A stretch of DNA of 64,000 bases from the NCBI GenBank assembly GCA_034780895.1, contig JAUZTB010000033.1:31275894-31339893 (forward strand), read 5' to 3'. The position numbers are program-made. This stretch comes from Rhynchobatus australiae (Eukaryota). Each line of letters begins with the position of its first letter. The first letter of the stretch is position 1. Positions 1 through 3,000 of this stretch are shown here, in pieces.

Positions 1-3000
1 GTAATGGGTGGGAAGTTCAAGGGAGATATCAGAGGGAGGTTTTTCACCCAGAGAGTGGTTGGTGCATGGAATGCGCTTCCTGGGGTGGTGGTGGAGGCTG
101 ATACTTTGGACAAGTTCAAGAGATTGTTAGATAAGCATATGGAGGAATTTAAAATAGGGGGATACGTGGGAGAAAGGGGTTAGATAGCCCGATGTGTGGT
201 TTAAAGGTCAGCACAACATTGTGGGCCGAAGGGCCTGTATTATGCTGTACTGTTCTTCAGTTCCAGTTACAATCAGTCAGCTACATTGGGCAGACCATGT
301 GCCCAACACCGGACTCATGCAATCGACAAGAGACTGCAGATGCTGGAATCTGGAGCAACACACAAAAAGCTGGGGGAACTCAGCGGGTCAGGCAACATCT
401 ATAGAGGGAAATGGAAAGTCGACGTGTCGGTCGAGACCCTGCATCCACGCTGGCCCCATTACAGAATAACAGCTTGCCATCACCCTCAGTTTGGCAATGT
501 ACTGGTCCCGTTTGCTCGGCCTTTCCTCCTGCAGGTCTAGGATTATGATCAGCAATCATTTATACAACAATCTAATTCTCACCGGCCCCCAAATTCAAAC
601 ACTCCTTTCATCATTTCAATTACACGAGAGCCAGGGGGGGAAAGTGGGGGAGATCGCGGGGACGGTTGATCAGCCTCCGAAACAACAGCCGGAGAGTGCA
701 AGTGGCTGCATCTATTCGGAGTGGCAGCCTTACAAATACGTTCATATTGAGTTGATGATCTCAATTAGAATCAAAATTGCAAGCGATCTGCCGGTTTGTT
801 CAACAACTCCCCTCGGATGCTCAAAGACCAGAGGAACATCCTATCTGCATGTCCTGCTGCCGCCGACTGAAGGCAGCCGAATCGATGGAGAAAAGCGCCG
901 GGTGCAGTGGCGTGCACTTGTAATCCTGCTGCCGGGAGGCTGAGGATGCAGATTGCTTGAGGGCGGGAGTTCTGGGCTGCAGCTGTCTGTGTGGAATGGG
1001 TGTCTGCACTCAGCGCAGTATCCACATGGCGATCTGAGGAGAACCTGAGGTCACCAGGTGGTTAAAGAGGGGTGAACCGGCCCAGGTCGGGAACGGAGCA
1101 GGCCAAAGCCCCTGTACTGTGCTGGAGTCAGGTGGCACCTGTGAATAGAGGCTGCAGTGCCGCCTGCCCAATACAGTGAGATGCATCCTTTTCCTGCACT
1201 TAGAAAAGAAGTATGCACAATCAAATCCTCAAACCCTCCACAGACAGACAGCTGATCTATCCTGCTTACTCGATTTTCTCTCCCATACCAAATTTGTCAC
1301 CAAAACCAGCAGCCAAGTTATACAACAGCCAAACTCTCACCTGCAAATTATAGTATAATTATCACTTCATTGATCTATCACATTGCACGCTGCCTATGAT
1401 GTGTTCCCACTGTCACTGCTCCCTGCTGCTCACTGCAGATACTGCACTTAGAGATTCTCCAGTTCTGGTAATTATAATCTCCGTGGCCACATGAAGGCGC
1501 AATTTTCAATTTCCCCACTCCTCAACTGAACGCACCTCTCACTGAAGTTACTCTCAATAAAGTCAACTCTGCTTTTTACCCTTAAATTCTCCACCTTCTT
1601 CACAAGATTTTCACTGTTTATTAAAACTCTAGGAGTTCTGCCTGCCTTCATTCCATGACAAATATAGCTGTCAAAGGGCCAGTAAAACTTAGTTTAATTC
1701 CACTCCTTGAATTGTCTTCCAAAACTCTGTACTTTAACATTGTTGCTGCTAATCACACACCTTTAGAAAAAGGACACAGAGAAAGCAGGGTCTGTTAAAA
1801 AAAACAATTCCCCAAAACTGCCTTCCCCGCTTCTTTAAGTCCAAAAATGTGATGCTGTTGGAATTTTTATTGCAAATGTGACTCCCGGCAACAGCAGCAG
1901 GGCTACCCTTTTAACACAAACTTGCACACTCCTGCGATACTGCTGAGGACAAACCACGGTTTTCATTCTTAAACCTTCCACAGAACGCAACATGCTTATG
2001 TTCTATTTTCTTTCCCATGCCACGATTATTATCACAACCAGTTCTTACCAATCCGGTAACATTGGAGGTGGCCTCTGTGTGTCTCTACCCCATTGCCCTC
2101 ACTCGGGACGCTCTCTGCTGTTGGCTACAGACACAACATACACAAAACAGCCAGTTTCGATAACTGTGCTCACTACCAGCACGAGGGAGCGCGATTGCCT
2201 TTTCAAACTCCTCTCTTAAGCAGGATGCATCTTTTATCGCTAGTGTCTGATAGTTTTCTTTGACTTCATTCATTTATAAGGTTTTCACTCTACTCTCAGT
2301 CCTAAATTGCACACATCTCCCGTTACTTAGCAATCAGCTTCGTCCTTGCTTTTTCCTTTTATTTTGTTCATTCACAAGCCAAATCACTTAGGGAGCTCTG
2401 GAAGTTTTGGAATCCTTTTCTCCCCCACGACAGATGCAACTAAAAGGGAGAATGAGAAGAAACAAAATAAACTGCAGGGCACAGTTCTTAAAGGATAAGA
2501 GAACAGAGAGCTGCGGATGTACATCACAGTAGTTGAATGTCGCCAGGCAGGGTGAGAAGTGGTTAAAAAAAACTTCAGGGATCTTGGTGTTTCTGAATAC
2601 TTCCGAAGCACTGAGTACAAAACAAGGAAGTTGCAACAGTCCTGTCCTGGGCGCCACGCTTTAGAAAGGATGTAAAAAGCTCCAGAAAATCTTTTCCAGG
2701 GAAGAGATTCCCAAGGAAGAGATCTGGTTCCAGGGATATTCCTCATGTCACTTTTGGTTCACTTTTGAATTATTTTCAATTTTCTCCCCCTTCCCCAATG
2801 GGAACAGTAATTCTCCACCTCCTGTGTCTAGCTTCGTCATGATTTCAAGTCATCGGATCTCCTTACAACCTTCTCTGCTCCAAAGAGAGCAACTCCATCT
2901 TCTGTTCACTCACTTAACTAAAGTCCCTCATTCCTGGAATCACCTTGGAAAATCTGCTCTGCACCTTCTCCAAAGCCTTTACATCCTTTTTTAAAGTGTG

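What the first reader, a model, noticed from the sequence alone, without database searches (positions are those of the whole stretch)
897..1192. Divergent but structurally intact 7SL/SRP RNA gene: candidate functional variant SRP RNA
Seen: a full-length 7SL with many substitutions relative to human 7SL (recalled from memory), mostly on both strands of helices. Pairs are GGGTGCA(900-906)/TGCACTT(913-919), GGATGCA(944-950)/TGCATCC(1182-1188), GGGCGGG(961-967)/CCTGCCC(1163-1169), CTGCAGC(977-983)/GCTGCAG(1151-1157), TCTGT/ATAGA and AGCGCAGTAT(1012-1021)/GTACTGTGCT(1114-1123). The Alu-domain UGU motif and loop-loop complementarity (GUGGC/GCUGC) are kept. Helix 8 (1079-1104) is nearly invariant, with a GNRA loop (GGAA instead of GAAA). 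The gene ends in TTTT with no poly(A) tail or evident target-site duplication. Established: vertebrate 7SL is normally very conserved, helix 8 binds SRP54, the Alu domain binds SRP9/14, and retropseudogenes decay without covariation. Inference: this copy has been under selection for structure and may be a second, lineage- or stage-specific SRP RNA, analogous to the maternal versus somatic rRNA/snRNA variants of zebrafish, which would imply a specialised SRP.
Basis: partly seen in the sequence, partly recalled or inferred. Interest (0 to 1): 0.78.

Follow-up and report, generated by a model that had tools for sequence, protein, structure and literature searches.

The report
Intact SRP RNA gene in a cartilaginous fish
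This is a complete, well-preserved gene for the RNA backbone of the signal recognition particle in a shark or ray genome, sitting next to a decayed twin; it looks like an ordinary working copy, apart from two unusual bases at protein-contact sites that deserve a check.

Summary
Window 897-1192 (+) is a full-length metazoan SRP (7SL) RNA gene: Rfam RF00017, 238.5 bits against a cutoff of 70, covering model positions 1-299. 104 of 120 consensus pairs are standard, against 47.7 +/- 5.2 in shuffles. 28 pairs differ from the Rfam consensus on both sides and still pair.

The host is a cartilaginous fish. The neighbouring minus-strand gene is PIK3C2A, closest to ray and shark proteins. Divergence from human is therefore expected and does not mark a variant.

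New here: a second 7SL copy on the minus strand (about 7182-6615). It shares both flanks with the first, is split by an interspersed repeat, and has decayed beyond Rfam detection. The pair is therefore a DNA duplication, not a retrocopy. A hand three-way count gives 46 of copy A's 58 comparable departures from the consensus shared with copy B. About 6 changes are unique to A and 48 to B, so A has been under purifying selection.

Whether A is a specialised second SRP RNA could not be tested, because no eukaryote genome or expression data were on hand. The only real hints are G instead of the conserved SRP72-contact adenosine in the 5e loop, and AGAA instead of GNAR in the helix 6 loop.

The parts
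897..1192 (+). Copy A: full-length SRP (7SL) RNA gene, 296 nt
   Evidence: RF00017, 238.5 bits, model 1-299/299. 104 of 120 consensus pairs are standard. MFE z = -4.49.
901..910 (+). Box A-like internal Pol III element, GGTGCAGTGG
   Evidence: Read. It differs by 1 base from the hagfish box A and by 2 from the human box A, as printed in PMC7245038 (passages).
968..978 (+). Box B-like internal Pol III element, AGTTCTGGGCT
   Evidence: Read. It is identical to the human 7SL box B as printed in PMC7245038.
919..924 (+). UGUAAU (UGUNR) motif of the Alu domain
   Evidence: Aligned to the upper-case consensus UGUAA, model columns 23-27. The motif is named in PMC2905702.
1022..1061 (+). Helix 6, with apical loop AGAA at 1040-1043
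   Evidence: The consensus loop is GGAG (GNAR). The third-position adenine is kept and the first position is A instead of G. Copy B has AGAG.
1068..1113 (+). Helix 8 (SRP54-binding region), with GNRA loop GGAA at 1090-1093
   Evidence: Every upper-case consensus position matches except the second loop base.
1002..1005 (+). 5e motif, 5' strand (G, U, C, U)
   Evidence: Pairs G1002-C1136, U1003.G1135, C1004-G1131 and U1005-A1130 appear both in the Rfam alignment and in the free MFE fold.
1130..1136 (+). 5e motif, 3' strand, with three-base loop G1132 U1133 G1134
   Evidence: The first loop base is G where the consensus has upper-case A. That position is human A240, critical for SRP72 binding (PMC2995471 and PMC2905702, passages).
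1189..1192 (+). TTTT run, the likely Pol III terminator
   Evidence: That four T residues suffice in vertebrates is established knowledge, not tested here.
854..896 (+). 5' flank shared with copy B, holding exact blocks CTGCTGCC (854-861) and ACTGAAGGCAGCCGAA (866-881, i.e. -31 to -16)
   Evidence: The 16-mer occurs exactly twice in the window, once upstream of each copy.
1228..1275 (+). 3' flank weakly shared with copy B (B 6614-6567)
   Evidence: 34 of 48 bases identical, E 3e-4 in a two-sequence BLAST. Also aligned.
6615..7182 (-). Copy B: decayed, interrupted 7SL pseudogene (3' limit uncertain)
   Evidence: A 897-948 aligns to B 7182-7131, and A 953-1120 to B 6856-6692 at 70% identity. Overall 181 of 272 aligned bases are identical. 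Only 62 of 118 assessable pairs are standard, 20 have a gap. There is no RF00017 hit even at E<=10 on 761 bases.
6857..7130 (.). Interspersed-repeat insertion that splits copy B
   Evidence: It is absent from copy A. It matches 5 other places in the window at 75-81% identity.
7246..7253 (-). TGACGTAA (CRE/ATF-type octamer), 64-71 nt upstream of copy B
   Evidence: One of only 2 matches to TGACGTMA in the window. The same octamer is listed for a human 7SL gene in PMC7279448. No counterpart lies upstream of copy A.

Best explanation
Copy A (897-1192, +) is a working SRP RNA gene of a cartilaginous fish, transcribed by RNA polymerase III. Transcription would start at G897, be driven by the internal box A and box B together with the proximal 5' flank, and end at the TTTT run. 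The RNA folds into the usual Alu domain and S domain and serves as the scaffold of the signal recognition particle. It is the survivor of an old inverted DNA duplication: its twin, copy B, was hit by a repeat insertion and decayed. Its many differences from human 7SL and from the family consensus are ordinary lineage divergence, fixed mostly as compensated pair changes and mostly before that duplication. They are not a sign of a specialised second SRP RNA.

Shown: the identity, the structure, the duplication and the rate asymmetry. Inferred: transcription, particle assembly, and that this is one of the species' normal 7SL genes.
For: - **Family match.** Full-length RF00017 match at 238.5 bits against a cutoff of 70.
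- **Pairing.** 104 of 120 consensus pairs are standard, against 47.7 +/- 5.2 in 2000 shuffles. MFE z = -4.49.
- **Where the differences lie.** Against the consensus, 83 of 94 differing columns are paired columns. 28 of the 30 pairs changed on both sides still pair. Only 11 of 59 unpaired columns differ (hand list).
- **Conserved positions.** 60 of 68 upper-case consensus positions are kept (hand count).
- **Promoter and terminator.** Box B is identical to the human one and box A is one base from the hagfish one (PMC7245038 passages). A TTTT terminator is present.
- **Not a retrocopy.** Copy B shares 43 nt of 5' flank and part of the 3' flank.
- **Rate asymmetry.** A hand three-way count over about 213 comparable columns gives 46 states shared by A and B against the consensus, 6 unique to A (one ambiguous), 48 substitutions unique to B, and 6 where all three differ. 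B also has indels and a 274-nt insertion. The totals agree with the script's mismatch counts. B keeps only 62 of 118 pairs and is invisible to RF00017 at E<=10.
- **Host.** The host is a cartilaginous fish: for one PIK3C2A exon the best matches are Narcine 90%, Hemitrygon 87%, and Carcharodon and Heterodontus 84%.
Against: - **5e loop.** The first base of the 5e loop is G1132. A review states that 141 eukaryal SRP RNAs have a conserved adenosine there, and that the human A240G RNA fails to bind SRP72 (PMC2905702 passages). The same fold comes out of the free MFE prediction.
- **Helix 6 loop.** The loop is AGAA, not GNAR at its first position.
- **Upstream promoter.** None of the mammalian 7SL upstream elements is seen at its place. 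A has ACTGAAGG at -31/-24 against the consensus CTCTAGTA, and TGCATGTC at -51/-44 against TGACGTCA (PMC7279448 passages). The dead copy B does have TGACGTAA upstream.
- **Not examined.** No expression data, no orthologues, and no census of other 7SL genes in this genome could be looked at.
- **Method limits.** The three-way count was made by hand. It uses a family consensus, not a true ancestor, as outgroup.
Confidence: 0.62

Rival explanations
1. Copy A is a functional but specialised SRP RNA paralogue, for example stage- or tissue-specific as in zebrafish, or with altered SRP72 or SRP19 binding. It would exist beside other, more consensus-like 7SL genes elsewhere in the genome.
For: - There is long-term purifying selection on A (hand count), together with non-consensus bases at two protein-contact sites.
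- One site is G at the 5e-loop adenosine position (PMC2905702 and PMC2995471 passages).
- The other is A at helix 6 loop position 1, shared with copy B and therefore old.
- The upstream region is unlike that of mammalian 7SL genes.
- There is a precedent: zebrafish has maternal (67 copies), somatic (1) and unexpressed (1) SRP RNA types that differ by about 7% (10.1101/869651).
Against: - No second intact 7SL type was seen. The only other copy in the window is dead.
- The two odd bases could equally be lineage-wide.
- All other conserved motifs are standard.
Confidence: 0.13
2. Copy A is an intact-looking but silent or recently disabled copy: an 'unexpressed type', or a young pseudogene in a slowly evolving genome.
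For: - No CRE-like or TATA-like element lies at the mammalian positions. The neighbouring dead copy keeps TGACGTAA.
- The A240G-equivalent base would abolish SRP72 binding if the human result carries over.
- Some of the few A-unique changes fall on upper-case consensus positions, at columns 37, 126, 149 and 198 (hand count).
- Zebrafish has an apparently intact but unexpressed SRP RNA gene.
Against: - A has about 6 unique changes against 48 in B over the same time, so any loss of constraint must be recent (hand count).
- 28 of 30 doubly changed pairs still pair.
- Columns 149 and 198 change within the allowed GNAR and GNRA classes.
- Promoter rules for cartilaginous fish 7SL genes are unknown. 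The exact 16-mer at -31 to -16 shared by both copies may be the local proximal element.
Confidence: 0.2
3. Copy A is a LINE-mediated 7SL retropseudogene or a 7SL-derived SINE copy.
For: The 7-mer AGAAAAG lies on both flanks. LINE reverse-transcriptase fragments lie elsewhere in the window.
Against: - There is no A-rich tail.
- The 7-mer is at chance level, 2-5% of control sites.
- The element is full length, including the S domain.
- 5' and 3' flanking DNA is shared with copy B, which retroposition would not carry.
Confidence: 0.03

Closest known systems
Metazoan SRP RNA / 7SL RNA (Rfam RF00017; for example the human RN7SL genes)
   Same: Full-length match. It has the same Alu domain and S domain helices, the UGUNR motif, the helix 8 SRP54-binding region, the four-pair 5e motif with a three-base loop and a G.U wobble, box A and box B, and a T-run end.
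   Different: 94 of 299 columns differ from the consensus, mostly as compensated pairs. The 5e loop is GUG instead of the AU(a) of the consensus, and the helix 6 loop is AGAA instead of GGAG. No mammalian-type CRE or TATA-like box lies upstream. No direct comparison with the human sequence was made.
Zebrafish maternal, somatic and unexpressed SRP RNA gene types (bioRxiv 10.1101/869651; passages and section 18 read)
   Same: A fish genome with more than one 7SL gene copy.
   Different: The zebrafish types are all intact, differ by about 7%, and were told apart by RNA-seq. Here the second copy is a dead pseudogene, and no expression or genome-wide copy data exist. The preprint's supplementary tables were closed, so the variant positions could not be compared.
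7SL retropseudogenes and 7SL-derived SINEs (Alu, B1, hagfish SINE1-1_EBu; PMC7245038, passages read)
   Same: Derived from 7SL, and carrying box A and box B.
   Different: Those elements lack the S domain or carry LINE-derived tails and target-site duplications of about 17 bp. Copy A is full length and tail-less, and it shares genomic flanks with copy B.
SRP RNAs that depart from GNAR or lack the 5e adenosine (Thermoplasmatales helix 6 loop AAAG; archaeal 5e loops; PMC2905702, passages read)
   Same: A purine-rich helix 6 loop that starts with A and keeps the third-position adenine, and a 5e loop whose first base is not A.
   Different: Those are archaea, which have no SRP72. This is a vertebrate, where SRP72 is expected to bind that site.

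Membership tests
Metazoan SRP RNA (RF00017) | Covariance-model score above the curated gathering score, over the full length | tested here: met
   238.5 bits against 70, model 1-299 of 299.
Metazoan SRP RNA (RF00017) | Alu domain: helices 2-4 and the UGUNR motif | tested here: met
   Helices 897-899/938-940, 900-907/912-919 and 924-926/935-937. UGUAAU is at 919-924. The partners of the loop-loop tertiary pairs (model G13, G14, C33, C36) are present. Their role is recalled, not tested.
Metazoan SRP RNA (RF00017) | Helix 6 closed by a GNAR tetraloop with a conserved third-position adenine (the SRP19 site and helix 6-helix 8 clamp) | tested here: inconclusive
   The loop at 1040-1043 is AGAA. The third-position A is kept, the fourth is a purine, and the first is A instead of G. 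The motif is described in PMC4615810 and PMC2905702.
Metazoan SRP RNA (RF00017) | Helix 8 with a GNRA loop and the conserved internal loops that bind SRP54 | tested here: met
   In 1068-1113 every upper-case consensus base is kept except loop position 2, which gives GGAA.
Metazoan SRP RNA (RF00017) | 5e motif: four pairs around a three-base loop | tested here: met
   G1002-C1136, U1003.G1135, C1004-G1131, U1005-A1130, loop 1132-1134. Seen in the Rfam alignment and in the free MFE fold.
Metazoan SRP RNA (RF00017) | Conserved adenosine as the first base of the 5e loop (human A240, needed for SRP72 binding) | tested here: not met
   G1132 stands opposite the upper-case consensus A, model column 239. 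The conservation and the A240G result come from PMC2905702 and PMC2995471 passages. The primary paper, PMC2390789, is not held.
Metazoan SRP RNA (RF00017) | Pol III gene signals: internal box A and box B, and a T-run terminator | tested here: met
   GGTGCAGTGG at 901-910, AGTTCTGGGCT at 968-978, TTTT at 1189-1192, compared with the boxes printed in PMC7245038.
Metazoan SRP RNA (RF00017) | Upstream CRE/ATF site near -50 and TATA-like box near -30 (described for mammalian 7SL genes; not a defining feature of the family) | tested here: not met
   A has TGCATGTC at -51/-44 and ACTGAAGG at -31/-24, with no TGACG within 200 nt upstream (PMC7279448).
Metazoan SRP RNA (RF00017) | The RNA is expressed and assembled with SRP proteins | not testable with these tools
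   No RNA-seq, ChIP or binding data are on hand.
Variant (maternal/somatic-type) SRP RNA system | Two or more intact, sequence-distinct 7SL gene types in one genome | not testable with these tools
   Only this 64 kb could be searched. It holds one intact and one dead copy.
Variant (maternal/somatic-type) SRP RNA system | Differential expression of the types between stages or tissues | not testable with these tools
   No expression data.
7SL retropseudogene / 7SL-derived SINE | A-rich or LINE-derived tail, target-site duplication, and no shared genomic flanks between copies | tested here: not met
   No tail. The flank 7-mer is at chance level. Flanks are shared between A and B.

The most novel reading that the evidence does not exclude
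Copy A is a vertebrate SRP RNA that has been held under purifying selection for a long time. Yet it lacks the adenosine that eukaryotic SRP RNAs use to bind SRP72, and it lacks the leading G of the helix 6 GNAR loop. One reading is that cartilaginous fishes have rewired SRP72 and SRP19 recognition of the RNA. The other is that this locus encodes a long-lived variant SRP RNA that builds a particle with altered SRP68/72 loading, alongside standard 7SL genes elsewhere in the genome.
Probability: 0.2. Interest if true: 0.6.

Novelty: new member of a known kind. Interest (0 to 1): 0.3.

Why it matters
As it stands, this is a routine annotation: an SRP RNA gene and a neighbouring pseudogene downstream of PIK3C2A in a cartilaginous fish.

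It has two modest uses. First, the intact and decayed pair is a clean internal control. It shows purifying selection on structure without needing other genomes.

Second, the G at the 5e-loop position is the natural equivalent of the human A240G change, which is reported to abolish SRP72 binding, and here it sits in an otherwise well-kept gene. If that base is the norm in sharks and rays, the 'conserved adenosine' rule for eukaryotic SRP RNA has an exception, and SRP72 recognition must have shifted. If it is confined to this copy, the locus is a candidate variant or silent gene of the kind reported in zebrafish. Either answer needs only a covariance-model search of public cartilaginous-fish genomes.

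Tried and rejected
1. **Retrocopy reading.** I looked for a tail and a target-site duplication. I found only the 7-mer AGAAAAG on both flanks, which is at chance level. Rejected, also because copies A and B share flanks.

2. **Other RNA genes.** There are no tRNAs and no other Rfam hit, apart from a 20-bit chance match to Xist_exon1 at 8288-8351.

3. **Rfam on copy B alone.** Scanning 6540-7300 at E<=10 returned five weak chance hits to unrelated families and no SRP hit. Copy B therefore could not be aligned to the consensus by the tool, and I made the three-way comparison by hand.

4. **One global MAFFT alignment of A against B.** It mis-aligned the 5' part because of the insertion in B. I replaced it with two piecewise alignments.

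5. **Mammalian upstream promoter motifs in A.** Not found. Upstream of about -43, similarity between A and B is near random. The CRE-like octamer upstream of B therefore cannot be assigned to the ancestral promoter with confidence. It also sits at -71/-64, not -51/-44.

6. **Primary paper on the 5e adenosine (PMC2390789).** Not held. I relied on passages of two later papers by the same group and one structural paper.

7. **Literature on elasmobranch 7SL genes.** Two searches (listings only) showed none in the held library.

8. **Comparison with human 7SL, with other cartilaginous-fish 7SL genes, or with the rest of this genome.** Not possible.

9. **PIK3C2A gene model.** Its exons were searched one by one.
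Full report
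**What is there**

Window 897-1192 (+) is a complete signal recognition particle RNA gene. cmscan against Rfam 15 gives RF00017 (Metazoa_SRP) at 238.5 bits, with a gathering score of 70 and E 2.4e-64. The match covers model positions 1-299 of 299, with three single-base deletions and no insertion. It is the only family above threshold in the 64 kb. At E<=1 the only other match is a 20-bit chance hit. ARAGORN finds no tRNA.

Under the Rfam consensus structure, 104 of 120 pairs are standard pairs (86 Watson-Crick, 18 G-U). In 2000 shuffles of the same bases the mean was 47.7 +/- 5.2 and the maximum 66. Infernal itself flags only 7 pairs as unexpected non-standard pairs. The free fold has -141.4 kcal/mol, z = -4.49, and 0 of 200 shuffles do as well.

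So are the UGUAAU motif (919-924), the helix 8 GGAA loop (1090-1093) and the terminal TTTT (1189-1192).

**Whose genome it is**

The window is not human. On the minus strand, between about 14.6 kb and 50 kb, lie exons of a class II PI3-kinase. I searched these exon by exon and made no joined coding sequence.
- Pfam finds the PI3Ka domain in 37773-37988 and 35240-35479.
- It finds PI3_PI4_kinase in 25244-25504, 23612-23947 and 20469-20738.
- It finds a weak PX match in 17618-17938.

The single exon 37773-37988 is closest to PIK3C2A proteins of cartilaginous fishes:
- Narcine 90%
- Hemitrygon 87%
- Carcharodon and Heterodontus 84%
- Callorhinchus 79-83%
- Hemiscyllium 76%

No 100% match was listed, so the species itself is not named. 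N runs in the window (15 runs, 1729 bases) were left alone.

**Divergence**

I used the Rfam consensus printed instead and listed the differing columns by hand.
- Copy A differs in 94 of 299 columns.
- 83 of these lie in the 240 paired columns and only 11 in the 59 unpaired ones.
- Of the 120 pairs, 62 are unchanged and standard.
- 30 pairs are changed on both sides, and 28 of those still pair.
- 23 pairs are changed on one side, and 14 of those still pair.
- 5 pairs are unchanged but non-standard in the consensus itself.

This is what any true SRP RNA from a lineage far from the bulk of the seed sequences should show. It does not by itself point to a paralogue.

**A decayed twin**

BLAST of the first 3 kb against the window found a second 7SL-like sequence on the minus strand.
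- A 897-948 matches B 7182-7131.
- A 953-1120 matches B 6856-6692 at 70% identity.
- Between the two B pieces lie 274 bases (6857-7130) that are absent from A. They match five other places in the window at 75-81%, so this is an interspersed repeat.

The similarity runs into the flanks.
- A 854-896 matches B 7227-7183 and contains two exact blocks, CTGCTGCC and the 16-mer ACTGAAGGCAGCCGAA. The 16-mer sits at -31 to -16 in A and occurs in the window only at these two places.
- A 1228-1275 matches B 6614-6567, with 34 of 48 bases identical.

A retrocopy would not carry flanking DNA, so A and B are an inverted DNA duplication. Copy B keeps only 62 standard pairs out of 118 assessable ones, and 20 have a gap. 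It gives no RF00017 hit even when its 761 bases are scanned alone at E<=10.

**Selection on copy A**

I used the consensus as outgroup and the piecewise alignments, and compared about 213 columns by hand (model columns 1-53 and 58-223).
- Of the 58 columns where A departs from the consensus, 46 show the same state in B.
- 6 are unique to A (columns 22, 37, 92, 126, 149 and 198; column 22 is ambiguous).
- In 6 columns all three differ.
- B has 48 substitutions of its own, plus indels and the insertion.

My totals reproduce the script's mismatch counts of 15 in 897-948 and 47 in 949-1120.

Two conclusions follow. Most of what looks divergent in A was already there before the duplication.

The limits are that this is a hand count, that a consensus is not an ancestor, and that the 3' third of B is too decayed to use.

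**Two bases that are not ordinary**

At 60 of the 68 upper-case (strongly conserved) consensus positions, A agrees with the consensus. The eight exceptions are columns 22, 37, 126, 146, 149, 198, 222 and 239 (hand count). Columns 149 and 198 stay within the GNAR and GNRA classes. Columns 22 and 222 keep their pairs. Two exceptions matter.

(a) *Helix 6 loop.* The loop at 1040-1043 is AGAA where the consensus has GGAG.
- The third-position adenine, which clamps helix 6 to helix 8, is kept.
- The leading G of GNAR is not (PMC4615810 and PMC2905702, passages).
- Copy B has AGAG, so the leading A predates the duplication.
- A leading A is known from Thermoplasmatales, which have AAAG.

(b) *5e motif.* The motif is present in full, both in the Rfam alignment and in the unconstrained MFE fold. 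Its parts, with MFE pair probabilities, are:
- G1002-C1136 (0.999)
- U1003.G1135 (0.848)
- C1004-G1131 (0.557)
- U1005-A1130 (0.733)
- a three-base loop, G1132 U1133 G1134

This matches the published human motif: G109-C244, U110.G243, C111, and the loop 240-AUC-242 (PMC2995471 and PMC5224484, passages). The first loop base, however, is G.

A review by the group that defined the motif makes two statements (PMC2905702, passages). In 141 eukaryal sequences this base is a conserved adenosine. Human RNA with the single change A240G does not bind full-length SRP72. The primary paper is not held. Copy B has T at this site, in a poorly aligned stretch, so the ancestral state is open.

**Promoter**

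The internal elements look sound (PMC7245038, passages). Box B at 968-978 is identical to the human one. Box A at 901-910 is one base from the hagfish one.

Upstream, the mammalian pattern is not seen in A. That pattern is a TATA-like CTCTAGTA at -31/-24, a CRE TGACGTCA at -51/-44, and Sp1 sites (PMC7279448, passages).

The decayed copy B has TGACGTAA 64-71 nt upstream. This is one of only two matches to TGACGTMA in 64 kb. Its position does not fit the mammalian spacing, and homology between A and B fades upstream of about -43, so its meaning is unclear. Nothing is known to me about 7SL promoters in cartilaginous fishes. Two literature searches listed no paper on their 7SL genes (listings only).

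**Reading**

The best-supported account is that A is a functional Pol III gene for the SRP RNA of this fish, and one of its normal 7SL genes (confidence about 0.6).

The specialised-variant reading is possible but untested (about 0.13). It has a published precedent in zebrafish, where 67 clustered maternal copies, one somatic copy and one unexpressed copy differ by about 7% (10.1101/869651, passages and section 18). The preprint's supplements were closed, so I could not see which positions differ there.

A silent or recently disabled copy is the other live rival (about 0.2), because of the A240G-like base and the missing upstream motifs. A retropseudogene is practically excluded.

**What stayed unchecked**

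- Any other 7SL locus of this genome.
- Orthologous loci in other cartilaginous fishes.
- Covariation statistics across species.
- Expression and Pol III occupancy.
- The direct comparison with human 7SL.

**Verdict**

This is a real and well-preserved SRP RNA gene, a new member of a known kind. The claim of selection for structure is supported by a new internal control. The two non-consensus bases at the SRP19 and SRP72 contact sites are the only features that would interest a specialist. A covariance-model search of public genomes would settle what they mean.

Noticed in passing
window 6615-7182 (-), insertion at 6857-7130: A second 7SL copy, decayed to about 67-70% identity and split by an interspersed repeat. 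It shares both flanks with the intact copy, so the two are an inverted local DNA duplication about 5.5 kb apart, tail to tail.
   Followed up: yes
window 7246-7253 (-) and 7234-7241 (-): TGACGTAA (CRE type) and CTATAGTG (like the mammalian 7SL TATA-like box) lie upstream of the dead copy B. They sit at -71/-64 and -59/-52, not at the mammalian -51/-44 and -31/-24. In B an 11-mer, TACATAATGAC, also occurs twice, at 7259-7249 and 7191-7181. I read this off and did not test it.
   Followed up: partly
window 866-881 (+) and 7198-7213 (-): An exact 16-mer is shared by both 7SL copies at -31 to -16, whereas the gene bodies are only about 70% identical. It may be the local proximal promoter element, or a chance run. 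My rough estimate is a chance of about 0.3 for one such run in an alignment of this length.
   Followed up: partly
window about 14600-50000 (-): Exons of PIK3C2A (PIK helical, kinase, PX and C2 regions), closest to ray and shark orthologues. The gene's 3' end faces the two 7SL copies.
   Followed up: partly
window 22338-22790 (+) and 30556-30798 (-): Reverse-transcriptase (RVT_1) fragments of LINE-type elements inside PIK3C2A introns.
   Followed up: no
window 140-426, with relatives at 52585-52698, 5511-5613, 27636-27706, 3189-3224 and 8076-8144: Copies of one or more interspersed repeats, 77-94% identical, just upstream of the 7SL gene and scattered through the window.
   Followed up: no
window 3103-53857 (15 runs): Runs of N totalling 1729 bases, several of exactly 100 bases.
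   Followed up: no
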